DNA from: Stegostoma tigrinum
Taxonomy: Eukaryota
Reading direction: 5' to 3'
NCBI RefSeq assembly: GCF_030684315.1
Contig: NC_081383.1
Coordinates: 26,705,942-26,769,941, forward strand
DNA: 64,000 nucleotides
The position numbers and the translations under genes are program-made. Positions 8,071 to 63,429 of this stretch are shown piece by piece. Below the pieces are notes generated by a model. The model made no database searches. It was not told where the DNA came from and was given only the letters and a program-made list of their open reading frames with translations. The number at the start of each line of letters is the position of its first letter. Position 1 is the stretch's first letter.

Positions 8071-10156
8071 CAAACTCTGTTTTAAAGCCCAAAGAATACA
8101 ATGATGTACAGAACCTTTAGGAGAAGAAACAAATTAAATAAATTAGACCAGACTAATCCAGCTGATATCCAGAATTCAATATGATAACGTAATATATCAG
8201 CTGCTAATGTTCCCAACAGGCTTTGACAGGCCTGTTCAATACCAGAATGCCTAGCTGGCAGATTTTATCTACAACAGGAAAGACATGGTGCCGCATCTGA
8301 GCTGGAATTCTTCTACAGAGCTTGGGAAACCTGTAGTACATGATACAGAGTTACTCACAGCTCTCAGTCTATCCTCCATGTCTCCACAAGGACACAAGCT
8401 GGTTCTACTCAAACTAATGCATAATGTAAAATAAAATGATGAGAATGCAGTATGCTATGCTTGTACACTGCATGTGAAATGACACATTCCCACGACTGAC
8501 TGTATTACCAAGACAAGCTTCTGGTACTGGATAGATACTGCTTTCTGCTGGAAAGGAACATTAACTTTAGGGCAAATGACTCTCACACTTCTCTACATTC
8601 AGACTGAGAGTTATGCTTTAATGTTCATTTCACCGTCAAGGCCGTCCCCTTCCACTTTATAATTATCATTTAAGTTTTAAAATCCCTCCATGGTTCCAGC
8701 TCCCTTCATCTCTAATTTTCTTCAGCTCTTAATCCTTAGAAATCCTTGTGCTCATCAATTTTAGCCTGTTCAGTATCTTCTTTTTGATCACTGTACTACT
8801 GCCTTAAAATGTGATGAATTCCTTCCATTAATCAGTCCATGTCTCATTGTTTTGTTGCCCCATTTATGATATTCGTTAACACTTCTTGACCAAGCTTTAA
8901 ATCATATATTCTCTTATCTCCTAGCATAGTTCATGTTAAATTTTGTTTGATCATAAAGAAAGCTGTACTTATATAGCACTTCTCATGATCACTAGACATC
9001 TGAACGGGTTTGAAACATTTTTGAGGTAGAGTTATTGTAGCCATGTAGGAATCACAGTAGCCAAATACATGCACGGCAAAGTCTGTGAAAAGCAATATGA
9101 TAATGATGTATTTGTAATGTTGATTGAGGGATAATCAGTGGCCAAGGTAGCAGGGATAGCTTCAGTGCTTTTCTTCAAAATGGTAATATATTCCTGAAGT
9201 TTCATTCCCGAGTTGTTAGCGCAGAGTCTGGAAAATTTCAAAGGCCACAAACCCTTCTGCAGTTCCTATTATCTCTAGTCAGCAGCAGGAATTGGGGCCC
9301 ATTGTCTTGGTAAACAGCTCAGAGGCATCCACCAGTGCAGAAGAGGGTGTTTAAAAGGGCAGCCTTGGCGCTCTGGATCTTTGCCCCAGCTATTAATCAA
9401 AGTAATAAAATAAAAAAAGTCCCCAGTCCTCTTCTTACATGCCACATTCATATCAATCTACATCAACTCATGTTCATGCCCACTCCTACATGCCATCTCA
9501 TACCCTCCGACCTAAACTCCTCTCTTGATCCCATATCCCTTTATAGCTCCTATGACAACTCATATTACCCTACGCCATCCTTTGCTGATACACTTTCCAT
9601 TCCACCTCAACCAATATGCACTATGGGTAGACCACAGTATATATGTTGAATCTAAATAAAGATCTATGTATCTACTGATAACTTCACTAAGTTTAAGGAA
9701 AAAAAATGATTTTTAACAAATTACTACCTTTAAATTCATTTAATCCCTTATCAAAATAGTCCTGCAAAAAAGCAGTACAGTCATTTGGAACTGCCAATTA
9801 AACTGTGAACTGATTGGTATCCTGCCATGATGACAATTTGTTGTCCCCCCAGGCTTATGTGGAGAGTGAAATAGCAAGCACTCATTTTTGTTCTAAAATT
9901 TCAGGCTATTTTTCAGAAAATGGGTTGGCCAGAAGATTTAAACAGCATAAAATATTTATAATTCTAATGAGTTTCACAGTCCTAATGAGTTTATATACGT
10001 TTTCCACACATTCATATTGATTTTTAACAGTCCCGAAGGATACTAGGACCTCACCGAAAGATGTTCAAGGACATTTCCAAATAACTGGCAGTTTTAGACT
10101 TTCTCCTGAAAAATGTAAAGACCGCAAGTCATGTCTCAGGCATCTCACAATTGAAA

Positions 10157-10375
10157 TAAAATCAGAAATTTGCTGGTAAATCTTAGCAGGTCTGGCAGCA
10201 TCTGTGGAGGGAAATCAGAATTAACGTTTCAGGTCCAGTGAGCATTCTTCTGGATCCGAAATGTTAACTCTGATTTCTCTCCACAGATGCTGCCAGACCT
10301 ATTAAGATTTTCCAGCAATTTCTGTTTTTGGTTCAGATTACCAGCATCTGCAGTTCTTTCAGCTTTTTGTCTAGT
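10157..10375. mobile_element. Fold-back PLE-derived mini element (family C) with 15-bp TSD
   Basis: Inverted arms (GCTGG..AGGTCTGGCAGCATCTGTGGAG / CTCCACAGATGCTGCCAGACCT..CCAGC); TSD ATCTCACAATTGAAA at 10142-10156 and 10376-10390. Confidence 0.85.
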
Positions 10376-11407
10376 ATCTCACAATTGAAAGTGCATTTGT
10401 TTGATGATTGCTACACTTCAAAATGTGCAACTGTCCTCTTGAACCATGGATACGCCAAGTAAAATCCACCTTCACTTTCCCATGACAACAATAATGGGTG
10501 CTAGGTTTCCAGAATTGTAGCTCTGGTACCACTTTGGACAAGTCAGAGTCCTTCTCAGTCAGTATGAAAGTTCATGTCATAGAATCTTTTCCATCAATGT
10601 CCAGGCAGATAGGGCCATGGCTTAATGTTCCAACTGAAAGACACTACCTCCAACAGTACATTTCTCCCTTCATTCTGCACTGGAGTATCTGCCACAATTC
10701 TGTGATCAAGCTCTGCAACAGAATTTCAATGAAACCTGCTTACACAGAAGCAAGAGTGTAAGCCGTAGCTGATAACACTCTTTTAAAAGTGCTGTGGGAC
10801 TCTTTACAACATTAAAGGCACAATGTAAATGCAAGTTGTTGTTGTCACAAATCTTTTGTTTCCTCCAACTTCAGAACAGGCCAGCAATAGCTGCAACTAA
10901 TATGGATAGGTGGAAGTGGACTACAACCTCACCATTTCTTCCTGACCCAAAGGCATTCAACCAAATTTCCCGCTTCCTGTCAATATCCAGCGGTCCTTGC
11001 GAGAAAGTGAGTGACTGAGAGTGGATGTTGTGAGAGGCAAGTTTCAGTCTTGACGGCATGGTTCTACGGAGTTTGAACACACTGGGTCAAAACAGCACAT
11101 GATAGCCAACGGCGTGAAGGTATAGGCATATTAGTGCTATTGGTAGAGAAGACGCAGCAAAGAAAACACTGTCAAAAACTGCTTTAAAAACAGATTAAAT
11201 CAAACAACTTATTCAGTATCAACCAATTAATTTGTCTTTTTGGGGATTGGGGATTTTTGATCCCAGATTTCAACTGTTTCTTTCTTTATCTTCATGCATT
11301 TCTGCTGCTCTCTTAAATGAGAGCTGTTGTGTCTGACCCACCTGGATCTGTAATAAATATTTCTAAAAACACCCCACCCACTAACAAGGACACATGAGAA
11401 CCTTTAC

Positions 11408-11497
11408 CTTTGATATATCAAGCATGTCATCGTAACTGAGGAGAGCAACCGGGATATCAATTTCCTCATACTGACTCCCATTTCCACCTGGAGGCAC
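11408..11497 (-). CDS. SPPL2B: SPPL2B exon 4 (VPPGGNGSQYEEIDIPVALLSYDDMLDISK)
   Basis: CTGCAG acceptor, GTAAAG donor, 90 nt phase 0. Confidence 0.95.
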
Positions 11498-25541: not shown

Positions 25542-25624
25542 GTAAGCCCCAAAGATGTTCCTAGTTTTTATAACTTGATGGACAATCTATGAAACAAAAA
25601 TTGTGAAGTGTATTCTAGACTACA

Positions 25625-25711
25625 AAAGTGTAGAGTTGGATGGACACAGCAGGATCCGAGGAGCAGGAAGGCTGACATTTTGGGCCCAGCATCTGCAGTT
25701 CCTACTATCTC
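25625..25711. mobile_element. Degraded fold-back PLE mini element (family B) in LSM7 intron 3
   Basis: Inverted GTGTAGAG..GGATG..AAGGCTGAC part fused to the tail CCAGCATCTGCAGTTCCTACTATCTC. Confidence 0.7.
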
Positions 25712-28427
25712 TGTCTGTAAAGTGACTTCCAGTTTTTCTGATTTGAAAAACATTGTATGACTTTTGATTTTAGTTTTTTTTTGCATAGCTCCTCTTCTCT
25801 TTATCATCTTCCCTTCTAAACACTTTTGTATGCAGCTTAATTTTCAGCTGTATTTTCTACCTGCTAGTTACCATAAACACTTTTTTTTTCTGTTTTTTTT
25901 ATCCAAAGAGCTCTGGATTTTTCTTTTGCTGTATTTTTGTGAGGAAATATACATTGTGCCAGAACCCTTTTTTTTTTGTTTTAATCTATCTTTTGGAAGG
26001 CATCTTATTGCACATGTAATCTTTCACTCTGCCCTTTTGATCCAGACTAACAAGAACAAGTCTGTTCTTGCCCCATTAAAGTCTGCTCTGTCTAATTATC
26101 CTTAGTTTGCTTTGTCTCTTGTTGCCACGGTCCTCCCAAATTTCATGATACAATGATCACTGTACCTTTTTTTAAAGGTTACCCTACTGATACTACTTCC
26201 TAAGAAGTAAGTCCAGCAGTGCTTTCTTTTTTAACTTGTTGCATTGATGTACTGCTGTTGGAAATTCTTTTAAATGCATTCCAAGAATGTATGTTTGTTT
26301 GCTTTTCTCTTTTTCCTAACTACCACTATTCCAACTTCAATTGGAGTAATTGAAATCTCCCACATACTCTTTGCTTGCATTATTCTGTAATTTCCTTACT
26401 GATTTGTTCCTCTACATCCCTATTACTAACTGGTGGCCTGTAAACTACACCCAGCAATATAATGGACTCCCCTTGTACCTTTTGCTCCAGCCAAGTTGAT
26501 TCTGTCCTTGAAGCCTTTTTTTTCCTCCCAAGCAGCTGTCCTTCACCAAGATTACCACTGCGTTGCTTTCTTGCTTTACCCTCTCCCTGTAACTAGGAAT
26601 GTTTAGTACTTAGTTCAGCCTTTCCTTTGCCCAGCCTGTTATTGCCACAGTATTATAACTCAATGTGGCGATCTGTACTTGTAACTTGTCAATCCTGTTT
26701 ACTTCCATTCATATGCACAGTTGTAATTTCTCCCTTTAATCCAGTTATTAATTTGTTCTACACTCTAATCTTTTAATGAGCTTTCTAAATTCTTACTACA
26801 GGACTACATCACCACTCATTTCTACATAAATACCAATGTAGACCATGATCTGCAGTTGAACGCATCCCTCGGGAAGAATGTCCTGTAATTACTTTGTGAC
26901 ATTCTTGATTCTAACACCTGTGAAAGAAAATGCATTGCTGGCATCACATCTTTGACTGCAGAAATGTCTCTAGTCTCCTAACAAATCAGTTCCTTTTTAA
27001 CTGCTGCTTTCCCCCTTTTCCTTCCTTCCCTCCCAAATAGCTGGCTCACTCATGTTGCCATAGGCTTAGCATCTCCTCTGAAAACCTTTACCATTATCAG
27101 AATGAAAACTGATTCTTGAGTTAAACCCCTGCATTGTCTTCCTGGTTCTCTTGGACTGTCTGATAGTCACATGTTCCTGATCTGCCTGCATGCCTCTAAC
27201 CTACACTTATACTGGCTCTGTGAACATGCTGTCTGTAACTTGCAGCCTCGTGGATGCAATGCAGTTGGTCTGCTTTCTGTAACTAGTGGTACTTGTATAT
27301 ATTCTTCCAGGTCATTTTCAGGATTCTAGATGAATAAACTCGCAGTTCTCCCACAGGTATTGCTTTTCTTAAACTTGGTGCTTTCATACAGCTTCTCAGC
27401 TCCTTGTCCCCAAGTCTTTGTAAGTGATCAGAAGTGTCAGACATTAAGTAAAGTGTCAAAAATTGAAGGGATCTCCTGTAATCCAATTAATTGAGGTAGA
27501 GGTGTAATTAGAATTTTTTAAAAATTCTGTTTGGAGACAAACCAAGCAGCTGGAATAACATGGGTATAAAAGTCACACACCAAGGGTCTAACCAAAGTAA
27601 CAAGTAATCCAAAACTCTACAAATTAAGGTAGAGGGAGATCCTCAGAAGTTATAAAGGTGATCGTGTCCAAAAGGGCAAGTAAGGAAGATTTTTTTTTAC
27701 AGTTGCAGAGCAGTTATGGGTTTGCATGTAGTGTGACATGAAGCCAAGATCACAGTTGAGGGTGCCTTCATGGGCATGGAACTTGGCCATCAGTTTCTGC
27801 TTTGCCATTCAGTGTAAATCCAGAATTGATTATTCCAGCATACATGTCACCTGCCTTCCATGTTATGACATCCATAAACTTGCCATCCAAAATTCTACTG
27901 CCTGTTGTCACTGACACCTAGTCCAATCTGGGCAGTAGCATGGTGTTATTTGAAAATTTGGCTGCCACTTCAATTTCTCTATTCTCCCTATCATGATGAT
28001 CTCTCGGTCCTTACAACCCTTTCATCAGTATTATAATTCTGGCCTCTTTGAGCTATGTTTGTTTTTGTTGTTGCAACACTAAGGGGCTATACCTACAGGG
28101 GCAAAGCCTTCAGGTCTAGAAATCACTCCCTAAATCTACATTTGTCTTGTTTCTCTTTCCTCACTACTCTTTTATTTTAAAACCTGCTTTGGTCAGCTGC
28201 CACATGTTTCCTTTATGTGATTTAGTGTCAGGTTTTCCTGTATACCATGTTGGAGCATGATTGAATTCAATGTTTAATTCAATACTTTTTAAAGTCCTTC
28301 AAATGAAGTGTTATGTAATTTCTAATTAAAACACGTTTACATCTCATCACATTTAGCATGTTCCACATAGTTTTACACTTTATGTAACTGGAGTCTAGCT
28401 TTTTAAACTTAACATTACTAATTTCAG

Positions 28428-29262: not shown

Positions 29263-30151
29263 CTTTTTTCCAGTACTTTATGCTGGGTCTGCTTTTATCT
29301 GGCTTTAATGAATTAATATAACAATGCTGTATAAGGCATAACTTAAGCTTGCAAAGTTACCTCTTCCACTGCTTTGAAAATAATCTTTTCATCCCTCCAG
29401 TACACTTTTTGACACTACGTGGGATGCAACAGTTATCTGTTGTGACACTTTAGATGTGAACTAGATTTGGAGGCTGTACTAGACAAACATCTGATCTGTC
29501 CTCTGAGCTGCAACAGTTAAGGTTATGTTTTAGGTGTACACCCACAACTGTACCCTTAACTCTGAATTCAGAGCATCTTTGCAATGCATTCTCTTGCAAA
29601 TATTGTGTTTGTCATGTCACTTATGACCAACTTTAGTATTAATCAATGCATTAATAACCTAGGCATGCAGACTACAAATAGATATGAATTAAATGTTTTC
29701 ACAGATTTGTGCGCATCACTTAGTTTTTTCTGAACTTTAGAACTGCTGTCTCAAAGTTTTTAAAAAGAACTGCAAGGGATACAACACTTACCTAACCACT
29801 TGATTACATGTATGGTGTTTAAATATTGACCTAACTTAAAGTTGAAACATTGATAGGTGAATTTTTTTATATTTAGTAAAAAAAACTTGAAAATTTAAAA
29901 TTTAATTACATAATGCTACATGACAGTGATTCATTTTCTCACTTGTTCTGCCCCACCCGAGACTCTGCCTCTGAAGAGATGCTCAGCAGACAGCAGTCAC
30001 CTATCCATGGGGATGGTGGTGTTTGGAACATGCATAGTGGAAGGAGTAATCAATTACTATATCACTTATCATTAAGTGCTGTTAGCTAGGGTGTTTCAGG
30101 ATTTTCATCCAGTGAATTAAAGAAATGGTTTCTCTTTCAAGGAGGCCAGGT

Positions 30152-30306
30152 GACATCAGAGGCGCAGGAAAGCTGACATTCTGGGTCAGGACCCTTCTTC
30201 AGAAATGCCATTTCTGAAACATGAACTTTCCTCTTGATCTGCTGTTCTCCTCCAGCTCCACAACGTTTTATCTCTGACTCCAGCATTGACAGTTCCTACT
30301 ATCTCT
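30152..30306. mobile_element. Degraded fold-back PLE mini element (family B-like)
   Basis: Minus-strand CTGAAGAAGGGTCCTGACCC hammerhead remnant, turn-round at TTCAGAAATG-CCATTTCTGAA, tail CAGTTCCTACTATCTC. Confidence 0.65.
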
Positions 30307-35720: not shown

Positions 35721-35872
35721 AGGTGCAGTGATTATCTAAATTTAATTAAAACTATTACAAAGCAAAACTTTGAAATATTCTTACCCATAGGTGCTAGCGA
35801 GTTTTGAGAAGATTTGTAGCTCGGGTTGGGGTTCTGGATGTGAGTTTGCTCGCTGAGCTGGAAGGTTAGTTT

Positions 35873-35912
35873 TCAGACGTTTCGTCACCATTCTAGGTAA
35901 CATCATCAGTGA
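35873..35912 (-). ncRNA. Minimal type I hammerhead ribozyme motif (mirror copy)
   Basis: Exact reverse complement of 36763-36802. Confidence 0.85.
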
Positions 35913-36762: not shown

Positions 36763-36802
36763 TCACTGATGATGTTACCTAGAATGGTGACGAAACGTCT
36801 GA
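36763..36802 (+). ncRNA. Minimal type I hammerhead ribozyme motif (family A)
   Basis: TCA-CTGATGA-T-GTTACC-tagaat-GGTGAC-GAAA-C-GTC-TGA: complete core, 6-bp stem II, 3-bp stem I, palindromic ACGT in place of stem III. Confidence 0.85.
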
Positions 36803-39125: not shown

Positions 39126-39214
39126 TCTGATGAAGGGTCTAGGCCCGAAACGTCAGCTTTTGTGCTCCTGAGACGCTGCTTGGCCTGCTGTGTTCATCCA
39201 ACTTCACACTTTAT
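39126..39214 (+). mobile_element. 89-bp PLE-derived element (family B) beginning at a hammerhead core
   Basis: CTGATGA-A-GGGT-ctag-GCCC-GAAA-C-GTC at 39127-39154; 13-bp TSD with one mismatch, TATCCC(C/T)CTACTC, at 39113-39125 and 39215-39227. Confidence 0.82.
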
Positions 39215-39369
39215 TATCCCTCTACTCCCTTTCTGTTCATGTGTCTGTCTAAATGCTGCCTAAACTTTGCTAATACATCTGCTTTTACATCGTCCCATGG
39301 CAGTGTGTTCCAGGGACCTACCATCCTCTGTGTAAAAAATACTTGCCTTGCACATCTTAAAATTTTCCT

Positions 39370-47883: not shown

Positions 47884-50202
47884 TGTCACAAACTATTTTG
47901 CTGCGTTTGATAAATCCAAACCTATGTTAATAGGTCCTAAAGAAATCTAGGCAGGGGATGTGGATGTTGCAGAATGCCCAAGTACTTGTGCCGTCAATTT
48001 CACGTTCGGTAATTTCTTGGTTATCAATATTCCAACAGCAATTGTTTCTCCTACCGATATTATTGGTGTGTATTGCCAATATTGCTGTAATCAAGCTGCA
48101 GAAACAAAATAAATGCTTGCATTAGGGATATTTTATATAGTTTTAGTTTTGTATTTTAGTCTTATATAATCAAGCAACCAAAACCACACAGTTTCTATGT
48201 TAACTTTAAAAACCAGAAATGTCAAGTAGTGACATTTATACAAAGATATCATGTAATACAGCAAAGTTCTACTTTCAATCTTAATTGTGCTCAGCTAGCT
48301 AATGTGAGACACCAAAGCATATGGGGAGTTATAGTTGGTTTTGCTGTCTGTGAAACTGCAAAGATGAAAATATAGTTTGACTCCTGCTTAGTAATGAATG
48401 ATCCTGTTAGGATGCAGCTGTGTGACAGTGGTTCAGTTCTGAAGTTCCGATTCCACAGAATCAGTGGCTGGGAACATTATTTAAAATGAATACAAGCACT
48501 GCTACGGAACTTAAACATCGGGGAAAGTAAATTTTAAAGAACTTGCATTTTTGTGAGAACACACAAGGAGCCAAACATCAGTGAAAACTGGCGCAGAAGA
48601 ATTAGTCTGAAATGGGGAACTTATACCTTAATCAAAGTAAACATCCAATGAACACACACTCCAGTGAGAGCAAACACAGAGAACCTGAACCCCATTGAGA
48701 ACCAACAGAGAGAAACCCAACACTTGGGACAGTCAGTATCGAGGTTCCCCATCTCCAGTGAGAGTCATTTTCCGGGAAACAAAATTTTCAGTAACAGTCA
48801 GCACATGTGGAACTAAATAGGAGTGAAAACATAGGCAACAAATCCACAGTTCTTGGGAAGCAAATCCCTGACAGGGTCACTCCTCTAGGAGAGAAGAAAG
48901 TAATAGTAAAAGAAAATCTAAATAATAAAATCAGTGAATAATTAGTAAATAGTAGTCTTACTTATGAATTCTATCAAATTTCTGTGAACAGCATCACTGT
49001 CAGAAAAATAAACCACGTAAGCTTCCACCCATGCATTTCACTTGCAGACTCTCTACAGCAATATCCTAACTTAACTAGGCAGCACAGCTTACAGTTCCAA
49101 ATGGATGTTGTCCCTCTGACTGTCGGACAGGACTCTGGAGAGTTTCTTAGTGAATGGATTTTTATCTGATTGCAGAATCCATGGGAAGCTGTATTTTCCA
49201 CAGGGAAATGTTTTCGTAACATGCCCCATGACTCAGATATTCACAGTATGTGTCAGTGTCTCTACAAAGTACTCTTTATCCAGTCAGTCAGACATTTGTG
49301 GTAAATGCTGGAATATTGAAAACCATATCTTCCATAAAAGAACTTTTAATTGTTAGACCATACAGTTCACAATATTAAATAATGTTGAACTCCAGAACAC
49401 ATTGATTGCAGATATTTCTTTCGTAATTTATTTGTAACACTAAACAAAGCTAGTTCTTTTGCTGAATCACACCCATCAAGTCAGCTGGTGCCGCAAATTA
49501 GAGTAAGATCTTAATAAAATTTGAGACTCCCTCATTCTGAAGTTATGAGCAAACATTTCTCGTCTGTTAGATCATAACCAGATTATTGGGTCATTTCACA
49601 CTGACAAGACTGCATTCTGGAAAACCATATGAAAACTAAAGTTGGGAATTTTCACTTTTAAAAAATCTATTTGCTTTGTATAAAAATAGACATCAAAAGC
49701 ACAGAAAATAGGAATGACAATAGGTCATTCAGCCCTTCGAGCCTGCTCCACCATTTCATATGATCATCCTACTTGGTTCCCTGTTCCCACTTTCACCCAA
49801 TAGCCTTTGACCCCTTTAGGCATAAGAACTATAACTAACTCCTTCTTGAAAACACTATATAACAACATATGCAATTTTTAGAAATATGTTTTCATCTATT
49901 TTCTCAAATTAAAGCAATAGATCCTGTTGGGTTACTGTCGCAAAGGGACAGTCACACCTCTTCTACTGGGATAACTCTTTCCATGGATATTCTTTACCAA
50001 GATTTGGAACCTTTTTATGGTGATGCTGTCCCTGAAGAACAGTCACTCTTCCTCAAAGCAACAAGAACAACTGGTCAGTGATAGTGATCAGGTGACGAAA
50101 CCTTGCTTCTATTTTCCTTTCGTAACTGATGAAAGATGTATTCAGTATAATGTCCCTATTGCTGTTATTAGCGATCAGCTAATCCAACAGACTGTGAAAG
50201 GA

Positions 50203-50345
50203 GATAACAAGTGTAGAGATGGATGAACACAGCAGACCAAGCAGCATCAGAGGAGCAGGAAAGCTGATGTTTCGGGCCTAGACCCTTCTTCAGAAAATAT
50301 TATCTCAAATTCTCCAGCATCTGCAGTTCCTACTATCTCTGAAAC
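50203..50345. mobile_element. Fold-back PLE mini element (family B) with hammerhead motif and 13-bp TSD
   Basis: Minus-strand CTGAAGA-AGGGTCTAGGCCC-GAAAC-ATC followed by a plus-strand tail; TSD GACTGTGAAAGGA at 50190-50202 and 50346-50358. Confidence 0.85.
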
Positions 50346-50652
50346 GACTGTGAAAGGAACTTAGCACATTTTTGCATGACTTGGGACTCATTAGATAAAC
50401 TCACTGAGTCATAGGGAAAGTTCTGGAAATTTCTAGTGTTGCACATACATATGTTGGAACATCTCTGCATTTATAAATAGGTGAAAGAGTAGAATCCCAA
50501 ATACTGGGATTGCAGTATTTGCACTGTAGGCCAAATTGAAATTAATACCCTGTTTTTAATGTGAGCTCATCGATAACAGTTATTCTGTTTCTGTAAGATT
50601 TTCCTCCAGAAATGCCATCCGAGGAATTGAAACAAAAGTTGACTGTCCATAC

Positions 50653-50786: not shown

Positions 50787-51109
50787 CTACAGGAAATTTA
50801 AAATTAAAACAGAAAACACTGGAAACAGAAGATAGCTCCACCGGCAACTTGTCTCCTTGCTTTTCAGATGTGTTCTGGTTTGTACTTTATATTTGTTCCA
50901 AATTCAGACTACTTTATATCATTAAGTTGAGAAACATTTTGCTGATTCCAATTTAGGTAAAGCATCCTCAATACCTTCTCTGATCCTGACACAGGTTGGA
51001 TATCTTCAGTAACACCAAGTCACTCAAAAACATAACCCGATCCCATTATAGCCATAGATGTGAATCCCCTCCAGACAGAAGAAATCTCAAGCTCATTATT
51101 GCAGAGCTG

Positions 51110-54075
51110 AACATAGAACAGAGAACAGAGAACAGGCCCTTCAGCCCACGATGTTGTGCCGACCATTGATCCTCATGTATGCACCCTCAAATTTCTGTGA
51201 CCATATGCATGTCCAGCAGTCTCTTAAATGTGCCTAATGACCTTGCTTCCACAACTGCTGCTGGCAACGCATTCCATGCTCTCACAACTCTGTGTACAGA
51301 ACCCGCCTCTGACATCCCCTCTATACTTTCCTCCAACCAGCTTAATACTATGACCCCTCGCGTTAGCCATTTCTGCCCTGGGAAACAGTCTCTGGCTATC
51401 AACTCTATCTATGCCTCTCATTATCTTGTATACCTCAATTAGGTCCCCTCTCCACCTCCTTTTCTCCAATGAAAAGAGTCCGAGCTCAGTCAACCTCTCT
51501 TCATAAAATAAGCCCTCCAGTCCAGGCAGCATCCTGGTAAACCTCCTCTGAACCCTCTCCAAAGCATCCACATCTTTCCTATAATAGGGCGACCAGAACT
51601 GGATGCAGTATTCCAAGCGCAGGCTAACCAAAGTTTTATAGAGCTGCAACAAGATCTCATGACTCAAACTCAATCCCCCTAGCGAGTTTTGAGAAGATTT
51701 GTAGCTCAGGTTGAGGTTCTGGATGTGAGTTTGCTCGCTGAGCTGGAAGGTTAGTTTTCAGTCACCATTCTAGGTAACATCATCAGTGAGCCTCCGACGA
51801 AGCGCTGGTGTTATGTCCCGCTTTCTATTTATCTGGTTACGTTTCCTTGGGTTGGTGATGTCATTTCCTGTTCTTTTTCTCAGGGGATGGTAGATGGGCT
51901 CCAAATCAGTGTGTTTGTTGATGGAGTTCCGGTTGGAATGCCATGCTTCTAGGAATTCTCGTGCATGTCTCTGTTTGGCTTGTCCTCGGATGGATGTGTT
52001 GTCCCAATCAAAGTGGTGTCCTTCCTTATCTGTATGTAAGGATACGAGTGATAGTGGGTCATGTTGTTTTGTGGCTAGCTGCTGTTCATGTATCCTGGTG
52101 GCTAGCTTCCTGCCAGTTTGTCCAATGTAGTGTTTGTTACAGTTTGCCAACACTACATTGGACAAACCGGCAGGAAGCTAGCCACCAGGATACATGAACA
52201 TCAACTAGCCACAAAACAACATGACCCACTATCACTTGTATTCTTACATACAGATAAGGAAGGATACCACTTTGATTGGGACAACACATCCATCCTAGGA
52301 CAAGCCAAACAGAGGCATGCACGAGAATTCCTAGAAGCATGGCATTCCAACCGGAATTCCATCAACAAACACATTGACTTGGAGCCAATCTACCGTCCCC
52401 TGAGAAAAAGAACAGGAAATGACATCACCAACCCAAGGAAACCTAACCAGATAAATAGAAAGCGGGACATAACACCAGCGCTTCGTCTGAGGCTCACTGA
52501 TGATGTTACCTAGAATGGTGACGAACGCCTGAAAACTAACCTTCCAGCTCAGCGAGCAAACTCACATCCAGAACACAATCCCCTGCTAATGAAAGCCAAA
52601 ACACCATATGCTTTCTTAGCGACCCTGTCCACTTGGGTGGCGATTTTAAGGGATCTATGTATCTACACACCAAGATCCCTCTGTTCCTCCACACTGCCAA
52701 GATTCCTATCCTTAATCCTGTACTCAGCTTTCAAATTCGACCTTTCAAAATGCATCACCTCGCACTTATCCAGATTGAACTCCATCTGCCACCTCTTAGC
52801 CCATCTCTGCATCCTGTCAATGTCCCGCTGCAGCCTACAACAGCCCTCTATACTGTCAACGACACCTCCAACCTTCGTGTCTTCTGCAAACTTGCTGATC
52901 CATCCTTCAATCCCCTCATCCAAGTCATTAATAAAAATTACAAACAGTAGAGGCCCAAGGACAGAGCCCTGTGGAACACCACTCACCACTGACTTCCAGG
53001 CAGAATATTTTCCTTCTACTACCACTCGCTGTCTTCTGTTAGCCAGCCAACTCTGCATCCAGACAGCTAAGTTCCCCTGTATCCCATTCCTCCTGACCTT
53101 CTGAATGAGCCTACCATGGGGAACCTTATCAAATGCCTTGCTGAAGTCCATATACACCACATCCACAGCTCGACCCTCATCAACTTTTCTAGTCACATCC
53201 TCAAAGAACTCGATAAGGTTTGAGAGGCATGACCTGCCCCTCACAAAGCCGTGTTGACTGCATTTAATCAAGCCGTGCTCTTCCAGATGGTCATAAATCC
53301 TATCCCTCAGAATCCTTTCTAACAGCTTGCAAACAACAGACGTGAGACTTACTGGTCTGTAATTGCCGGGGATTTCCCTATTTCCTTTCTTGAAGAGAGG
53401 AATTACATTTGCCTCTCTCCAGTCCTCAGGTACGACTCCAGTAGAGAGCGAGGATGCAAAGATCTTCGCAAGTGGCTAAGCAATTGCGTTTCTCATTTCC
53501 CAAAGCAGCCGATGACAAATCTGGTCCAGGCCTGGCGACTTGTCAATCTTAATGTTTGACAAAATTTTCAGCACATCAGTGTCCTCTATCTCTATCCATT
53601 CCAGCATGCACACCTGCTCTTCAAAGGTTTCATTCACTACAAAGTTTGTTTCTTTCGTAAAGACAGAAGCAAAAAACTCATTTAGGGCTTCCCCTACCTC
53701 CTCAGACTCCACACACAAGTTCCCTATGCTATCCCTGATCAGCCCTACTCTTTCTTTGACCATTCTCTTATTCCTCACATAAGTGTAAAATGCCTTTGTG
53801 TTCTCCCTAATCCGTTCTGCCAAGCCTTTCTCATGCCCCCTCCTGGCTCTCCTCCGACCATTTTTGAGCTCTTTCCTCGCCTGCCTGTAATCCTCTAGAG
53901 CTGAGCTTGACCCTAGCTTCCTCCACCTTATGCAAGCTACCTTCTTCCTTTTGACGAGAAGCTCCACTGCTCTCGTCATCCAAGGTTCCTTTATCTTACC
54001 CCTTCTTGCCTGTCTCAGAGGGACATATTTATTCATCACTCGCAACAACTGTTCCTTAAACAGTCTCCACATGTC
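51110..54075 (-). mobile_element. 5'-truncated CR1 LINE (RT) interrupted by a palindromic PLE
   Basis: SQHGFVRGRSCLSNLIEFF, YMDFSKAFDKVPH, GVPQGSVLGPLLF motifs; tandem tail at ~51110-51132. Confidence 0.93.
51679..52575. mobile_element. Second palindromic family-A PLE (arms 51716-52134 and 52149-52574), nested in CR1
   Basis: Mirrored HYIGQTGRKLATRIHE GIY-YIG ORFs; same unpaired tail as the 35791 copy; TSD CAATCCCC at 51671-51678 and 52576-52583. Confidence 0.92.
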
Positions 54076-54579
54076 TCCATTATGATGGACCATAATATCG
54101 TTCAGTCTCAAGAAACTTGTAAATTTCCATTATACAATACCACACTGATCCAATACAGCAATAATGTTAATTAATTAACCCAAGATCTCTGCAAGTAACC
54201 AATCTATTTTTAAAAGTTTTAAATCTTGTTGGCCACTTCAATGGCTCAGCCAATCTAGACAATGAGGAATTAAACCTTAAAAACCCGGAGTCAGTTTACA
54301 TCATCTGAAGAAATTACAGAGTCTTTACAATTTGTCTCTGCAAAATCGGAAAGATAGGGAAAAGTAGCCATGGTTCAATCACACTCAGAATCACTGGATT
54401 ATGACAGGCTGAATTACCACCAACTGCACTATGAAGTTCACATCACTTCTCCAAATGAGCATTTCATTTAGTGCCATTTTCTTGCCCATAATCCTGAACA
54501 TTGTTCTTTTGCATTTAACAGTCTTTTCAAAGTCTCCAATAAACCTACCTCTAGCACACTCACAGGCAGTACATTTCAG

Positions 54580-56864
54580 GAGCAAAAACAGAAATCGCTG
54601 GAGAAACTCAACAGGTCTGGCAGCATCTGTGGTGAGAAAACAGTGTTAATGTTTCAAGTCCGATGATCCTTCTTCAGAACTGATTGTAGCCAGGAAAATG
54701 TTGGTATATATGCTGAAGATGAAGTGGGGAATAGGCAAGGAGTAAACAATAGGTGGAGATGGAGCTCAGAGAAAGAAAGAAAACAGTTGTTGGGCAGTTA
54801 GGTAATGCTCAGCCTGGGAGAATCAATAGCTGCCGCTGAGGTCCATAAGTAGCTGACAATGGGTGGCTGTGGTAACCCATGTGATGGCAAGGCCCGGTGT
54901 GTGGGACTTGGGAGAAGGACATGGAAGAATGTGCTCAAGCCCCAAGCAGAAAATGAGATGCTGTTCTTCCTGAGCCTTGCTAATGCCCTGCTGCAAGCCT
55001 GAGTCAGGGATGTTGGCCAGGGATTGAAGCAGCAAGCAACAGGAAGTTCAGGGTCATTTCTGTGGAAAGAACACAGATATTCTGAAAAGTGGTCACTCAG
55101 ACTGTCCCCAAGGCAGAGCACATAGTATGTGAGGTGAATACAGTAGACTAAATTGAGTGAAGAGCAGGTAATTCACTGCTTCATCTGGAAAGTGTGCCTG
55201 GGACCTTGGATACTGAGGTGGGAAGAAGTAAACAGGCAGGTGTTAAACTTTCTGCAATTTCATCAGAAGGTTCTATGGGGGTGTGAGGAGTCATTGACAG
55301 TGGAGCAGGAGTGAACGAAGGTGTCCTGACGGAACAATCCCTGCAGACGGCTGACAAGGGAGGAGAGGGAAGGGAACATGTGTCTAATGGTGGCATACTG
55401 TTGGAGGTGGAGGAAATGGAGGCTAATGGTCCTTAGGTTGTGGATGCTGGTGGGGTGATAAGTGAGGATCAGGGGACTCTATCGGTGTAGTGGGAGAGAA
55501 AACCAAGGGTGAGGGCAGAAGTGTGACAGATGAGTCAGACACAGCTGATGGCCTTGTCAAGCACTGTGAAGAATCCTCAGTTGATGAAGAAGGCGGACAT
55601 TTTGGAGGCTCCCTTGTAGAAGGTGGCATTGTCAGAACAGATGTGATGGAGATAGAAGAACTGGGAGAATGGACTAGAGTCTTTACAGGAAGCAGGGTAT
55701 CAGGGTATATAGTCCAGGTAACTGTGTGAGTCAGTGAGTTTATAGTGGATATTCATAGCCAACCTTTCCCCAGAAATGAAAACAGTGATGTCGAGGAAGG
55801 GAGGAAGGAGTCAGAGATAGACTAGGTGAAGGTGAGAGCAGGATGGAAATTGGAAGTGAAATAGATAAACTTTTCCAATTCTGGACAAGAGACAGCACAG
55901 GATCACTTGTGTCATTGATGTACCTGAGAAAGATTTGCAGGAGTTAAAATGAGATATTGTTCAAAGTGAGTACAAACTTGACCAGTTGGAGGAAGATGGT
56001 GGTAGATGGGGACAGTTCAAGTCTTTTTTCCAGGAAGAAGCGGACAACCCGAGACCATCCTGATAGGGGATGGACATATAAAAGGATTGCATGTTCACGG
56101 TGAAGAGGAGGCAGCTGGAGCCTGCAACTAGAAATTCTGAAATTGGCGTTAAGCATTAGAAGAATCAAGGATACGAGGGAAGGGGAGAAAAAAATTGAGT
56201 CAAAGTTGAAGAGAGAATTCCTGAGGCCAGGAGCAAACAGAAACAATGGGTCTGCCCTGGCAATCCTATTTGTGGCTTTTGGGAAGGAGGCATGGCTACG
56301 TACAAACTATGAGCTTCAAGGCAATGGGGACGAGACCACCAGATTAAAACAAGATTAGTGACCACTGTGATCACAATAGCCTTCAATGGTCCACGAGGAT
56401 AAGAAGAGATGTCCAAGAGCTGATATTCAGCATCTCGTTTTCTGCTTGGGGATCCTGCCGTCTTCAGGGCTTGATGTTAAGTTCATTAATTTTTGGGGCC
56501 TGAGCACCTTCTTCTACGTCCTCCCAACCCTCACATTCCAGGCCTTATCATCATCACGTGGGCTGTTACACAACCAACCCATTGTCAGTTACTCATGGTA
56601 CCCATTTACAGTTGTTTATTCTCCCCAGGCTGACAATTAACCATTTTTTTCTCTGCCCATCTGCTGTTGCCTCACTCTGAGCTCCATCTCATCTTCAGCA
56701 TATAGACCAAGCTTTTCCTAGGCACAATCACTCCTGAAGAAAGGTGACTGGACCTAAAAGGTTAACTCTGCTTTCTCTCTCCAGATGCTGTCAGACCTGC
56801 TGAGCTTCTCCAGCAATTTCTGTATTTGTTTCAGCTTTACAGCATCCACAGTTTTTTTGGTTTT
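54580..56864. mobile_element. Old, degraded PLE (family C) with RT/GIY-YIG remnants on the minus strand and inverted terminal parts
   Basis: Minus-strand STTIFLQLVKFVLTLNNISF (PLE RT-like) and LSDHFSEYLCS..LPVA (GIY-YIG-like) remnants; ends are inverted family-C repeats; 12-bp repeat AGTACATTTCAG at 54568-54579 and 57233-57244. Confidence 0.75.
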
Positions 56865-57220
56865 CTTGATTGATTTGCTTTATTATTATTCACATGTACC
56901 GAGATACAGTGAAAAGTATTATCTTGCATGCTAACTAAGCAGATCATACCTTACGCAAGTACACCAGGGTGATAGAACTGAATACAGAATATAATGTTAC
57001 ACTACAGAGAAGAAGCAGCGAAAGATCAACACTCACGAATGAGGGGTTTGTTCATAAGTCTGATAATAGCAGAGAAGAAGCTGTTCTTAAATCTGTTGTT
57101 ATGTTTTCAAATTTTGTACCTTCTGCCGGATGAAAGGGAGGAAGACATTATAACAGGAGTGGGAGGAGTCTTTGGTTATGTTGGCTGCTTTCCAGAGACA
57201 GCAGGAAGTGTAAACCGAAC
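56865..57220 (-). mobile_element. Rex1/Babar-like LINE 3' end
   Basis: Similar to 15245-15600 (GATTGATTT..CACATGTA..AGTGAAAAGT..). Confidence 0.55.
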
Positions 57221-57244
57221 TTGTACCTGTTTAGTACATTTCAG

Positions 57245-59340: not shown

Positions 59341-59390
59341 ACCACTTACACCTCCTCCCTCTCAATGTTTTTGTTCTTGAACAAATTGAT

Positions 59391-59508
59391 AAAGTTGCTG
59401 GAAAAGCCCAGCAGGCCTGGCAGCATCTGTGAAGGGAAAAAACAGTTAACGTTTCGGGTCCGGTGGCCCTTCCTCAGAACTGTGTTTACAGCATCCACAG
59501 TTTTTTCA
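59391..59508. mobile_element. PLE mini element (family C) with hammerhead-like motif
   Basis: Minus-strand CTGAGGA-AGGGCCACCGGACCC-GAAA-C-GTT, followed by the plus-strand tail TTTACAGCATCCACAGTT. Confidence 0.7.
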
Positions 59509-60013
59509 GTTGTTAATTTATTCAGGTTTATCACAGGTCCCCTCCTCGACTTCTGAACTTAAATTGTTCTTTTCTGTAGTGAATACAGATGCAATGTACT
59601 CATTAAAAAGCTCAGCTATGTCTTCTGGCTCCACAGATTGCCACTTTGGTCACTACTGGGTTCAACTCTTTTCTCTACAGTACACAATTCACTACACATC
59701 CCTAAGCAATGACTGTAGATATTTAACTAACATGTTTGGGTAAGTAACACATCTCTGGAGCAGGCAGAACTTGAACCTGGACCTTCTGGCCAGCATTCTA
59801 AGTTGCATGGCTGTGCTACAGGTCTCGTACACGCTGACTGGCATGCCTTTGCATTGACATTTGCATGCAAACGTTGCTACCAAATACAGACCTTGGAGAT
59901 CTGGGCAACTGGAAAAAGAATTATTGGGGAAACATAGCATCGGGTCTAGATGTAGGGACACTACCACTGCACCACAAGAGTCCTCAAACAAATCAGGCGT
60001 CTTGACAAGCAAG

Positions 60014-61086
60014 ATAACAAGGTGTAGAGATGGATGAACACAGCAGACCAAACAGCATCAGAGGAGTAGGAAGGCTGACGTTTCGGGCCTAGACCCTTCT
60101 TCAGAAATGGGGGAGGTGAAGGGGATTCCGAAATAAATAGGGAGAGGGGGGAGGCAGACAGAAGATGGATAGAGGAGAAGATAGGTGGAGAAAGACAGAC
60201 AGGTCAAAGATGCAGGGATGGAGCCAGTAAAGGTGAATGCAGGTGGGGAGGTAGGGAGGAGATAGGTCAGTCCAGGGTGTACGGACTGGTCTAGGGGGCG
60301 GGATGACGTTAGTAGGTAGGAGATGGGGGTGGGGCTTGAGGTGGGACGAGGGGATGGGGGGGGAGGAAGGACAAGTTAGGGAGGCAGGGACAAGCTGGGC
60401 TGGTATTGGGATGCAGTAGGGGGAAGAGGAGATTTTGAAGCTCGTGAAGTCTACATTGATACCATTCGGCTGAGGGTTCCGAAGCGGAATGAGTTGCTGT
60501 TCCTGCAACCTTTGGGTGGCATCGTTGTGGCACTGCAGGAGGCCCAGGATGGACATGTTGTCTGACGAATTGGAGGGGGAGGTGAAATCGTTTGCGACTG
60601 GGAGGTGCAGTTGTTTAGTGAGAACTGAGCATAGGTGTTCTGCAAAGCGGTCCCCAAGCCTCCGCTTGGTTTCCCCGATATACAGGAGGCCACAACGGGA
60701 ACGGCAGATGCAGTATACCACATCAGTAGATGTGCAGGTGAACACCTGCTTGATGTGGAAAGTCTTCTTGGGACCTTGGATGGAAGTGAGGGGCGAGGTG
60801 TTGGGGCAGGTGTAGCACTTCCTAAGGTTGCAAGGAAAAGTGCTGGGTGAAGTAGGGCTGGAGGGGAGTGTGGAGCAGACAAGGCAGTCATGGAAAGTGG
60901 TCCCTCCGAAAAGCAGATAAGGGTGGGGAGGGAAAAATGTCTTTGGTGGTGGGGTCAGAATGTAGATGGCGGAAGTGTCGGTGGGTGATGTGTTGGATCT
61001 GGAGGTTGGTGGGGTGGTACATGAGGATGAAGGCGATTCTGTTTTGGTTGTTATTGCAGGGAGGGGGTGTGAGGGATGAGCTGTGC
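60014..61086 (-). mobile_element. 5'-truncated PLE (Neptune-like GIY-YIG endonuclease), coding relative of family B; hammerhead motif at 60075-60106
   Basis: ORF FTCTSTDVVYCIC..CGLLYIGETKRRLGDRFAEH..PNGINVDF; 3' region has CTGAAGA-AGGGTCTAGGCCC-GAAAC-GTC; 11-bp repeat TGACAAGC(A/G)AG at 60003-60013 and 61087-61097. Confidence 0.9.
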
Positions 61087-61114
61087 TGACAAGCGAGTCA
61101 GTTACAAAATGGAG

Positions 61115-61230
61115 AAACCAAAAGAACTGCGGACGCTGTAAATCAGGAACAAAGACAAGTTGCTGGAAAAGCTCAGAGGTCTGGCAGCATCTGTTAAGGA
61201 AGAGTTAATGTTTCAGGTCCAATAACCCAG
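61115..61230 (-). mobile_element. Family-C PLE 3' end with tail
   Basis: AAAAGAACTGCGGACGCTGTAAATC..TTGCTGGAAAAGCTCAG..GGTCTGGCAGCATCTG matches the other family-C copies. Confidence 0.7.
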
Positions 61231-61290
61231 AGAACTTTGGCACTAATTCCTACTACCTCTCATATGCTAAGCGAATATTCTACCATTTGA

Positions 61291-61491
61291 GATAACAAGG
61301 TGTAACAGCTGGATGAACACAGCTGGCCAAGCAGCAGAGGAGCACAAAGGCTGACGTTTCAGGCCTGAAGAAGGGTCTGGGCCCGAAACGTCAGCCTTCC
61401 TGCTCCTCTGATGCTACTTGGCCTGCTGTGTTCATCCAGCTCTACACCTTATTATCTCAGATTCTCCAGCATCTACAGTTCCTACTATCTC
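61291..61491. mobile_element. Fold-back PLE mini element (family B) with hammerhead motif and 14-bp TSD
   Basis: Inverted part 61291-61364; direct part starts at CTGAAGA (61365) and runs through GAAACGTC to the tail; TSD ATTCTACCATTTGA at 61277-61290 and 61492-61505. Confidence 0.88.
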
Positions 61492-62009
61492 ATTCTACCA
61501 TTTGAACTGTCATTCTAATGTTCCGCACTACCCTCCTCACAGTTTCCAATGCTTTCAAATGCTGAAATCCCGTTCTTGACCCCTATCCGGATTGAATACA
61601 ACTCGTCTGTGTTGCCCCCTTTTTGTAAACACAATCACACAATTCATCGAGATAATATTATGCTACCAAGTACCCGAGAAACACAGTCGTGCAAGAAAAA
61701 TAACCTACAAAAGAGGAAGTGAGAACATACCAAACAGAGATGAAAATTCTATTGCGCATTTTATCATCTAACTGAATAATCTTTTAATTACACGTAGAAA
61801 AGACTCGAAAAGATGTCAGATTACAAGCAAACTTCACTGGATCACAATTTAGCCAAGGCCTTAGTTCATACTGGATATTTCTGATCTACGACCATAAAGT
61901 AGGAAGTACAGTTGCTCTTTATCTGACCTCAGCAGTAAAATTATCCCGAATCCCCATTTCAGAGGGACAGGGACGCAGTAATTAAATACATTCACATACA
62001 TACACGCAC

Positions 62010-62540: not shown

Positions 62541-62564
62541 AAGCACCACCACACTGAAATGGGG

Positions 62565-62675
62565 CTTTTGTGGACAGTGGTAATGACCATACCTCTGCGC
62601 TAGGAGTCCCAGGTTCAAATCCCTCCTAGCTCAGAGGTGTGTAATGACATTTCTGCACGGGTTGATTAGAAAATA
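62565..62675 (+). mobile_element. tRNA-derived SINE head
   Basis: A-box-like CAGTGGTAATG and B-box GGTTCAAATCC; related minus-strand pieces at ~59740-59980. Confidence 0.5.
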
Positions 62676-63264
62676 CGTCAATTTGAGCTCGTATGCGTTC
62701 GTAGTGTCTGTGAAGAACATCCGGTGGTACTTTGCAGAGTCTGATGCAAGCCAAATAAGGAGATATTAGGTGAGAACACCAAACACTGGTTATGTGGTAG
62801 GTTTTAAAGAGTGGCTTAATGAGGTCAAGAGATGTAGAAAGAGTATTCATAGCTTGGGGCCCAAGGCAGTTGAAGGCACAGTGACTAATAATGAAACAGT
62901 TTACATTGGGAATGACCAAGGTACTAGAGTTCAGGAAGACATAATGGAAAATCATCAAAAGAAAGTTATAGCATGTAAAGAGGCCATTGTGGATAGCACT
63001 TTTCAAGTGCATGTCTTCGTTTGTCACGGTTTCTGCCTCAACTACCCTCTCGTACTGTGTATTACAGGTCTCCCACCATCCTTCAGATAAAAATATTTCC
63101 CTCAAAACTTCATTAAATTACCTACCTGTTATTTTCGATGTCAGCTCCCTAGTAATGGATCCCTTAGCCAACGAGGTTAGAACCCACACTGGTCCACTGT
63201 ATCTTGGCACGAAGTCTCTTTGCAGCTTCTCTGTTCCAGGCAAAATAACATGAACCTATTCAAT

Positions 63265-63413
63265 GATAATGGGAACTGCAGATGCTGGAGAATCCAAGAC
63301 AATAAAATGTGAGGCTGGATGAACACAGCAGGCCCAGCAGCATCTCAGGAGCACAAAAGCTAACGTTTCGGGCCTAGACCCTTCATTGTTCATTCAGCCT
63401 CACATTTTATTGT
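63265..63413. mobile_element. Fold-back PLE mini element (family B variant) with 16-bp TSD
   Basis: Minus-strand tail and body up to a truncated hammerhead core, then a 27-nt inverted copy; TSD CATGAACCTAT(T/A)CAAT at 63249-63264 and 63414-63429. Confidence 0.85.
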
Positions 63414-63429
63414 CATGAACCTATACAAT

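What the first reader, a model, noticed from the sequence alone, without database searches (positions are those of the whole stretch)
10142..63429. Three families of hammerhead-bearing PLE derivatives share one asymmetric fold-back architecture with long TSDs
Seen: about a dozen copies in 64 kb, in three sequence families with stem II GTTACC/GGTGAC, GGGTCTAGGCCC, or GGG(T/C)CAC(T/C)GGACCC. In most copies one end carries the family-specific tail, and the other end is an inverted copy starting near the tail boundary. The internal junction varies, giving elements of 0.09-2.3 kb. Nine TSDs are readable (left-copy start, length): 10142 (15 bp), 35775 (16), 39113 (13, 1 mismatch), 50190 (13), 51671 (8), 54568 (12), 60003 (11, 1 mismatch), 61277 (14), 63249 (16, 1 mismatch). 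Inference: a twin-priming-like GIY-YIG/RT mechanism, in which the two target nicks prime at two fixed template positions, produces MITE-looking, retrozyme-like non-coding elements. This is the best candidate for an under-described system in the window.
Basis: partly seen in the sequence, partly recalled or inferred. Interest (0 to 1): 0.82.

Follow-up and report, generated by a model that had tools for sequence, protein, structure and literature searches.

The report
Truncated Penelope-like retrotransposon insertions
These are real but mostly ordinary leftovers of Penelope-like jumping genes, whose lopsided fold-back shape is already described; a few regularities in how their two arms are paired could help test how these elements insert.

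Summary
All 9 of 9 TSDs are at the stated places and beyond chance; 4 of 9 are confirmed as single-copy in paralogous LINE sites. The window holds 14 loci: 10 two-armed, 3 single-armed, 1 cut by the window edge. They are 5'-truncated copies of endonuclease-bearing Penelope-like elements (PLEs): one Poseidon-type family and Neptune-type families, with decayed RT/GIY-YIG coding remnants in 4 of 13, closest to carpet-shark proteins. The architecture (inverted copy, tail at one end, 8-10 bp TSD, minimal hammerhead) is published as typical for PLEs (PMC3846280, PMC8557442, PMC4209133), and two fixed RT start sites with both strands nicked and extended were shown in vitro (PMC11167929). They are not retrozymes or MITEs: no tandem arrays, no repeated junction, no end at the ribozyme cut site. 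Residual interest: 9 of 9 readable two-armed copies pair one tailed with one tailless end; 9 of 11 Neptune-type copies stop within 20 nt at the hammerhead's 5' half; the tail sits on either side of near-symmetric junctions. This favours two-site priming over the published self-priming idea, but rests on one window.

The parts
10142..10390 (.). Family C (Neptune-type) two-armed insertion: TSD 10142-10156; tailless arm on minus 10157-10250 (carries the 11-nt spacer); tailed arm on plus 10250-10375; TSD 10376-10390
25614..25713 (.). Family B two-armed insertion: tailless arm on minus about 25614-25689; tail-only arm on plus 25686-25713; no TSD above chance
30125..30307 (.). Older B-like two-armed insertion: minus arm to 30207 (outer end decayed), 1-nt spacer, tailed plus arm 30209-30307 with internal deletions; no TSD above chance
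35775..36856 (.). Family A (Poseidon-type) two-armed insertion: TSD 35775-35790; tailed arm on minus 35791-36332; 10-nt spacer 36333-36342 that is sense on the tailless arm; tailless arm on plus to 36840; TSD 36841-36856. Both arms hold a frameshifted GIY-YIG remnant and a hammerhead core (36766-36795 plus, 35880-35909 minus)
39113..39227 (+). Family B (second subfamily) single-armed tailless insertion 39126-39214 starting just before the hammerhead core; TSD 39113-39125 and 39215-39227 (1 mismatch); inserted in a LINE
50190..50358 (.). Family B two-armed insertion: TSD 50190-50202; tailless arm on minus 50203-50296; nearly tail-only arm on plus 50298-50339 plus 6 extra nt; TSD 50346-50358
51671..52583 (.). 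Family A two-armed insertion: TSD 51671-51678 (8 exact, 12 with one mismatch); tailed arm on minus from 51679; 14-nt spacer 52135-52148; tailless arm on plus to 52575; TSD 52576-52583; inserted in a LINE; GIY-YIG remnant in both arms
54568..57244 (.). Family C long two-armed insertion: TSD 54568-54579; tailless arm on minus 54580 to about 56300 with decayed RT, Cys-rich linker and GIY-YIG; tailed arm on plus from about 56310 to 56870; nested unrelated repeat 56870-57232; TSD 57233-57244; inserted in a LINE
59378..59514 (.). Family C two-armed insertion: tailless arm on minus 59378-59482 with complete hammerhead (59452-59477); tail-only arm on plus 59486-59514; no TSD above chance
60003..61097 (-). 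Family B single-armed, 5'-truncated tailless insertion 60014-61086 with RT-thumb end, Cys-rich linker, GIY-YIG, C/T-rich 3' UTR and hammerhead (60081-60104); TSD 60003-60013 and 61087-61097 (1 mismatch)
61111..61228 (-). Family C single-armed tailed copy; no TSD above chance
61277..61505 (.). Family B two-armed insertion: TSD 61277-61290; tailless arm on minus 61291-61366; tailed arm on plus 61365-61491 (carries the 12-nt spacer); TSD 61492-61505
63249..63429 (.). Family B (second subfamily) two-armed insertion: TSD 63249-63264; tailed arm on minus 63265-63386; 28-nt tailless arm on plus 63387-63413; TSD 63414-63429 (1 mismatch); inserted in a LINE
1..58 (+). Tailed end of a further family B copy, cut by the start of the window

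Best explanation
Each locus is an independent, 5'-truncated insertion product of an autonomous endonuclease-bearing PLE (family A Poseidon-type; families B and C Neptune-type). Identity as PLE by-products: about 0.95. Mechanism, most likely: the GIY-YIG domains make a staggered cut 8-16 bp apart; one nick primes reverse transcription at the outer start site (tail end), the other at the inner start site 30-45 nt upstream (tailless end); the two cDNAs, both antisense, are joined head to head through 0-4 nt of microhomology and filled in, giving an asymmetric inverted repeat between TSDs. If only one nick primes, the result is a single arm with a TSD. If the tail-primed cDNA stops at the inner site, the result is L1-style twin-priming geometry; if both run on, an inverted duplication. 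The hammerhead is a passenger of the terminal repeat, not the source of the ends. Shown here: ends, TSDs, junctions, coding remnants. Shown elsewhere in vitro for an anole Poseidon: two start sites, both strands cut and extended. Inferred: both primings in one event, the joining step, and whether one or two RNAs are used.
For: RT/GIY-YIG remnants continuous with the hammerhead ends; a Stegostoma protein model runs from RT and GIY-YIG into the translated hammerhead of the second B subfamily. Fixed outer ends: A tailless +41/+45 and tailed +82/+85 from the cut site; B tailless about +63 to +67, tailed +97 to +99; C tailless about +65 to +70, tailed about +100 to +110 (C numbers are one too low). 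A's tail ends 110-116 nt from the ATGs inside the hammerhead, where PMC11167929 maps initiation at 111-118 nt into the anole ORF. 9 of 9 two-armed copies with both outer ends readable are tail plus tailless (p 0.002 for independent 50:50 choice, 0.010 by shuffling). In 4 near-symmetric junctions with 10-14 nt spacers the spacer is on the tailless arm in 2 (35775, 10142) and on the tailed arm in 2 (61277 clear, 51671 degenerate), which one folded-back cDNA cannot give. 3 of 10 two-armed copies have an arm that is little more than the tail (50190, 25614, 59378). Family A arms group by element: 4 of 4 two-versus-two substitution columns, plus three shared indels. Tailless ends overlap the TSD by at least 1 nt in 7 of 9 (p 0.0015-0.018 by reference choice).
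Against: One 64-kb window, 14 loci, many old. [quoted passage not shown] Two single-armed copies use the inner site alone, so it is not only a second-primer site. Arms of the same element are no more alike than arms of different elements in 54568 (79% versus 76-84%) and 61277 (91% versus up to 92%), and only marginally so in 10142 (87% versus 79-87%), so a shared template is shown for no B or C copy except possibly 63249 (29 of 31). Shared variants in A arms could come from later gene conversion. The microhomology signal depends on the reference copy; a first attempt was mis-registered and one row still is. 4 of 13 loci lack a TSD. No full-length or partial-tandem element is in the window.
Confidence: 0.65

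Rival explanations
1. Self-priming hairpin: an RNA (proposed to be antisense) or a single cDNA folds back and primes on itself, and the endonuclease resolves the hairpin with a staggered cut that leaves the tail on one arm. This is the published proposal for head-to-head PLE junctions.
For: PMC3846280 discussion interprets palindromic inverted junctions as self-priming and notes a 15-bp overlap of inverted and direct repeats; PMC8557442 ascribes the tail to endonuclease resolution. Here 5 of 10 junctions are near-symmetric with spacers of 1-14 nt, A arms share private variants, and a staggered resolution would also force tail+tailless pairing.
Against: One hairpin with a cut of fixed polarity predicts the tail always on the same side of the spacer; seen 2 versus 2. 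5 of 10 two-armed copies have arms of very unequal length (25614, 50190, 54568, 59378, 63249). The later in vitro work places the tail between two RT start sites on sense RNA.
Confidence: 0.2
2. The short B and C copies are self-propagating non-autonomous mini-elements (retrozyme- or SINE-like), transcribed on their own from just upstream of the hammerhead and mobilised in trans.
For: 9 of 11 B/C elements have the 5' end of their longer arm within one 20-nt window, -16 to -35 from the cut site (at most 178 of 100000 simulations under four truncation models). Non-autonomous PLE derivatives are known (PMC8557442; bioRxiv 2026.07.22.740005).
Against: 10 of 10 junctions are unique; 5' ends scatter over 20 nt; no tandem units; no arm begins at the cut site; long ORF-bearing copies share the same ends and sequence (60003 versus 50190, 91 of 95). 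RT stalling at the hammerhead or at the C-rich tract just upstream in B, or run-off from the 5' terminal repeat of a full-length transcript, explains the pile-up without a separate element.
Confidence: 0.12
3. MITEs of a DNA transposon, or fold-back assembly artefacts.
For: Long near-perfect inverted arms, 496 of 498 identical at 35775.
Against: Ends are asymmetric, TSD length varies from 8 to 16, sizes are all different, RT/GIY-YIG remnants are inside, and empty sites align through paralogous LINEs. Arms differ by up to 21% in older copies.
Confidence: 0.02

Closest known systems
Penelope/Poseidon-clade PLEs (anole PAc, PMC11167929; Adineta Pen2a, PMC3846280; D. virilis Penelope, PMC2377424)
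   Same: Family A: C-terminal GIY-YIG with no Cys-rich linker in its homologues, hammerhead overlapping an ATG, two fixed ends about 40 nt apart with the outer one 110-116 nt from the ATG, inverted 5'-truncated copy, tail on one end, TSD of 8-16 bp.
   Different: Only truncated by-products here; no partial tandem or full ORF; TSDs run longer than the 8-10 bp quoted for Adineta; host is probably a carpet shark.
Neptune-clade PLEs
   Same: Families B and C: RT thumb, Cys-rich linker, GIY-YIG, then 3' UTR and minimal hammerhead; tail of 30-40 nt.
   Different: No microsatellite insertion bias seen (TSDs 62% AT versus 59% for the window; 4 of 9 in LINEs); most copies are 90-220 bp and stop at the hammerhead's 5' half, a pattern I did not find described.
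PLE minimal hammerheads (PMC4209133)
   Same: Unpaired base before stem II, G-C closing pair, palindromic minimal stem III, short helix I, mostly dispersed motifs from truncated PLEs, pairs 100-700 bp apart on opposite strands.
   Different: None of substance; cleavage activity not tested here.
Metazoan non-LTR retrozymes (PMC7229834; bioRxiv 2026.07.22.740005)
   Same: Type I hammerhead, kinship with PLE terminal repeats, short dispersed copies.
   Different: Retrozymes are head-to-tail tandem units giving circular RNA; these are head-to-head or single, end at RT start sites, and some carry ORF remnants.
L1 twin priming
   Same: Second nick primes internally, giving an inverted segment between TSDs; fits 3 of 10 two-armed copies directly.
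   Different: The internal site is fixed, not random, and most two-armed copies duplicate the same segment in both arms.

Membership tests
EN+ Penelope-like elements | RT followed by C-terminal GIY-YIG endonuclease in one ORF | tested here: met
   Decayed RT-thumb to GIY-YIG in 60014-61086 and RT to GIY-YIG in 54580-56300; GIY-YIG in both A elements; homologues carry RVT_1 and GIY-YIG
EN+ Penelope-like elements | Minimal type I hammerhead in the terminal repeat | tested here: met
   Core, stem II and GUC/GUU site in all three families; features match PMC4209133. Rfam has no hit
EN+ Penelope-like elements | 30-40 bp tail at only one end of the insertion | tested here: met
   9 of 9 readable two-armed copies; tail about 33-44 nt
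EN+ Penelope-like elements | Inverted 5'-truncated copy adjoining the 5' end, variable TSD | tested here: met
   10 of 13 loci two-armed; TSDs 8-16 bp in 9 of 13
EN+ Penelope-like elements | Partial-tandem arrangement forming direct pseudo-LTRs around a full ORF | tested here: inconclusive
   No full-length copy in the window; genome not available
EN+ Penelope-like elements | RT phylogeny within the PLE clade | not tested
   No RT tree built; no named Repbase references available
Neptune clade (families B, C) | [quoted passage not shown] | tested here: met
   C-x4-C-x2-C motif in 60003 and its homologues; degenerate in 54568
Penelope/Poseidon clade (family A) | No Cys-rich linker between RT and EN | tested here: met
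   Absent in the closest longer homologues P0009, P0011, P0017, P0033; the window arms start too late to show it themselves
Penelope/Poseidon clade (family A) | Hammerhead and tail form the start of the ORF | tested here: inconclusive
   38-codon open frame from the hammerhead ATG to the tail end; the one database hit is a host gene model that ends its match at the same place
Non-LTR retrozymes | Head-to-tail tandem repeats of hammerhead-bearing units | tested here: not met
   0 of 5 tandem-repeat rows overlap an element; all pairs are head to head
Non-LTR retrozymes | Non-coding | tested here: not met
   ORF remnants in 4 of 13 loci; the other 9 are too short to reach the ORF
Non-LTR retrozymes | Self-cleavage and circular RNA | not testable with these tools
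   No RNA data; no arm starts at the cut site
MITE | Symmetric terminal inverted repeats, uniform length, fixed TSD length | tested here: not met
   Asymmetric ends, 89-2653 bp between TSDs, TSD 8-16 bp

The most novel reading that the evidence does not exclude
PLE insertion is obligate two-site priming on one RNA: the two protomers prime from the two target nicks at the inner and outer start sites of the same terminal repeat, so the ends can never be alike; lacking RNase H, both copy the same template and stop together, at an RT stall or at the RNA's 5' end when priming happens in the upstream terminal repeat. This would explain in one step the tail-on-one-end rule, the symmetric 10-14 nt junctions, the pile-up of Neptune 5' ends just ahead of the hammerhead and the mass of solo hammerheads in animal genomes. 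I found no such model in searches, but key older reviews were not in the library.
Probability: 0.3. Interest if true: 0.6.

Novelty: new member of a known kind. Interest (0 to 1): 0.3.

Why it matters
The system is not new, but how PLEs make their inverted ends is still called undefined (PMC8557442) and the in vitro paper leaves later steps unvalidated. A genome with about one copy per 5 kb and readable TSDs is a large natural data set: the pairing rule, spacer side and 5'-end distribution can be counted and would separate two-site priming from self-priming. Practically, these copies would be mis-annotated as MITEs, miRNA hairpins or host exons.

Tried and rejected
Rfam scan: no hammerhead family, only below-threshold miRNA hits on the palindromes. 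Single-strand folding of 7 hammerhead regions: not better than shuffles, uninformative for motifs that need dimers. Wider TSD search (25 nt slack) for the 4 loci without TSD: nothing above chance. First TSD null timed out. First microhomology count had four reference copies out of register and was replaced, where one row (50190) is still misaligned by an indel and counted as 0. Search for the ORF start behind family A's tail: one hit, a host gene model, inconclusive. Within- versus between-element arm identity: informative only for family A and 63249. A-T preference of targets: none evident. The 35775 'spanning' hit is a self-match and was not counted. 30125 was left out of the pairing count because its left end is decayed, and the copy at 1-58 out of all counts. 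Values fed to one search were read by hand; the 54568 value there (-1800) was later revised to about -1650, which does not change the count. The two PDF supplements of PMC11167929 gave almost no text, so the exact position of the second start site was not seen; bioRxiv supplements were not available. Dfam, Repbase, the host genome, RNA data, and viral and metagenome contig collections stayed unchecked; the bacterial genome collection was not used as it does not bear on the question.
Full report
Observation. The window looks like repeat-rich animal DNA (41% GC, LINE fragments with RT and AP-endonuclease domains). A core pattern found hammerhead-like motifs with three stem-II types. Self-comparison, family alignments and a profile search gave 14 loci: 13 within the finding's span and one cut at positions 1-58; four extra fragments scored E 0.07-0.9 and the reversed-window control gave none. 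Ten loci are two-armed and head to head, three are single-armed. All 9 of 9 claimed TSDs were found and each beats 3000 random boundary pairs at p<=0.002 with one mismatch allowed. Four loci have no TSD above chance. The right copy for 54568 lies 360 bp beyond the tail, after an unrelated repeat; a null for that freedom gave 44 of 5000. Rebuilt empty sites of 39113, 51671, 54568 and 63249 align straight through paralogous LINE copies, with the TSD sequence present once; the other five had no spanning paralogue.

What the elements are. The 60014-61086 copy encodes an RT-thumb end, a C-x4-C-x2-C linker and a GIY-YIG domain. Its best named hits among 7 are 73-75% identical proteins of Rhincodon and Stegostoma, and one of them reads on into the translated hammerhead of the second B subfamily. 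The long arm of 54568 carries a more decayed RT-to-GIY-YIG stretch of the same type. By the definition in PMC3846280 these are Neptune-type. Family A arms encode a GIY-YIG C-terminus with 39 hits, led by carpet-shark proteins and followed by flatworm ones; four longer homologues lack the Cys-rich linker, so A is Penelope/Poseidon-type. The host is probably a carpet shark (inference from these hits). The motifs have the marks of PLE minimal hammerheads listed in PMC4209133; Rfam does not detect them and their folding is not above shuffles. Activity is untested.

Anatomy. Counting from the hammerhead cut site, outer ends fall at two places per family, 30-45 nt apart. In family A the outer one is 110-116 nt from the ATGs in the hammerhead. 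Nine of nine two-armed copies with both ends readable have one of each (p 0.002, or 0.010 with fixed totals). All 10 junctions differ. Five are near-symmetric, with spacers of 1, 10, 11, 12 and 14 nt and about 0-2 nt of microhomology. The spacer is sense on the tailless arm at 35775, where it matches the KQQLM coding stretch of P0033, and at 10142; it is on the tailed arm at 61277 and probably 51671. Three copies have a second arm that is almost only the tail, one has a 28-nt tailless arm, one has arms of about 1.7 and 0.56 kb. In 9 of 11 B/C elements the longer arm's 5' end lies between -16 and -35; four truncation models gave 0, 3, 3 and 178 of 100000. No arm starts at +1. Family A arms group by element in 4 of 4 two-versus-two columns and share three indels, one a frameshift; B and C arms mostly do not resolve. 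Tailless ends overlap the TSD by at least 1 nt in 7 of 9 (p 0.0015-0.018), a modest and reference-dependent signal.

Mechanism. The most economical reading is a staggered double nick, priming from both nicks at the two fixed start sites, and head-to-head joining of the two cDNAs. Single arms arise when one nick primes. Self-priming of one molecule cannot place the tail beyond the start of the strand being copied, and a fixed-polarity resolution would tie the tail to one side of the spacer; the 2-versus-2 split and the five lopsided copies argue against it, on small numbers. The obligate pairing is easiest to understand if both primers engage one RNA. The pile-up of 5' ends may be an RT stall at the hammerhead or at the C-rich tract upstream in B, run-off from the upstream terminal repeat of a full transcript, or a short separate RNA; the window cannot decide. 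I put 0.65 on the two-site model, 0.2 on self-priming, 0.12 on self-propagating minis.

What is known. PMC3846280 (parts 1-4 of 5 read) describes an inverted terminal copy, a 31-bp tail on one side and 8-10 bp TSDs as the typical Penelope structure, notes a 15-bp overlap at the junction and proposes self-priming. PMC8557442 (passages and section 15) draws the same structure and calls its origin undefined. PMC2377424 (passages) describes inverted repeats of variable size and the 34-bp repeat in D. virilis. PMC11167929 (parts 1-2 of 4, passages, two near-empty supplements) shows two RT start sites bounding the tail, cleavage and extension of both strands, a predicted dimer, and no need for ribozyme cleavage; it also reports no strand difference in start site and no homology to the target, which my reading has to accommodate. 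PMC4209133 (parts 1-2 of 4) reports thousands of dispersed minimal hammerheads from truncated PLEs, including opposite-strand pairs 100-700 bp apart. Retrozymes are tandem units (PMC7229834, passages; bioRxiv 2026.07.22.740005, parts 1-3 of 5 and passages). PMC8969392 and PMC4350176 were seen as passages. L1 twin priming is recalled, not read. Searches found no paper on these shark families, and 11, 29, 46, 47, 58 and 59 none applying twin priming to PLEs or describing the 5'-end pile-up; the library lacks many subscription papers, and Dfam and Repbase could not be checked.

Verdict. A correct and careful observation of a known kind of element. What remains is a set of countable regularities bearing on an open mechanistic question. 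Interest 0.3.

Noticed in passing
35775, 10142, 61277, 51671 junctions: Spacer length plus TSD length is 26 in all four (10+16, 11+15, 12+14, and 14+12 if the 51671 TSD is read with one mismatch). Post hoc, n=4, boundary choices ambiguous.
   Followed up: no
52148-52399: The family A GIY-YIG fragment is 45-62% identical to proteins named from trematodes and a cestode, next to 66-90% for carpet sharks. Could be conservation or an old horizontal transfer; no tree was built.
   Followed up: no
family A (35791-36840, 51679-52575): Several shark host gene models (MAP3K7, CUEDC2, EYA3-like, WBP2-like, RP9 isoforms) contain family A peptide, so copies are exonised or mis-annotated.
   Followed up: partly
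56870-57232 and 15246-15594: An unrelated repeat, 70% identical between the two places, sits between the family C tail and its TSD; probably a later insertion into the T-rich tail end. Its family was not identified.
   Followed up: partly
59360-59377: Short plus-strand stretch resembling family C just outside the 59378 element; the element may have inserted into an earlier copy of its own family.
   Followed up: no
54940-54963 and 56428-56500: The long arm of 54568 has an internal deletion at the ORF end between two short direct repeats; the other arm keeps that stretch.
   Followed up: partly
60003-61505: Three insertions (60003, 61111, 61277) lie within 200 bp of one another, a local cluster.
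   Followed up: no
10142, 54568, 61277: TSD pairs are perfect (0 mismatches in 41 nt) although the arms differ by 9-21%; may be ascertainment, or the arms came from different templates.
   Followed up: partly
505-2672, 17198-19367, 51109-54075, 6001-7964, 15967-17895: Several long LINE fragments with RT and AP-endonuclease domains; the pair 505-2672 and 17198-19367 is inverted and 78% identical.
   Followed up: no
32468-32581: CG/CT-rich microsatellite array, unrelated to the PLE copies.
   Followed up: no
5583-5652: Below-threshold Rfam mir-219 match on both strands, E 0.0016, 33 bits against a cut-off of 54.5; a hairpin outside the PLE copies, not examined.
   Followed up: no
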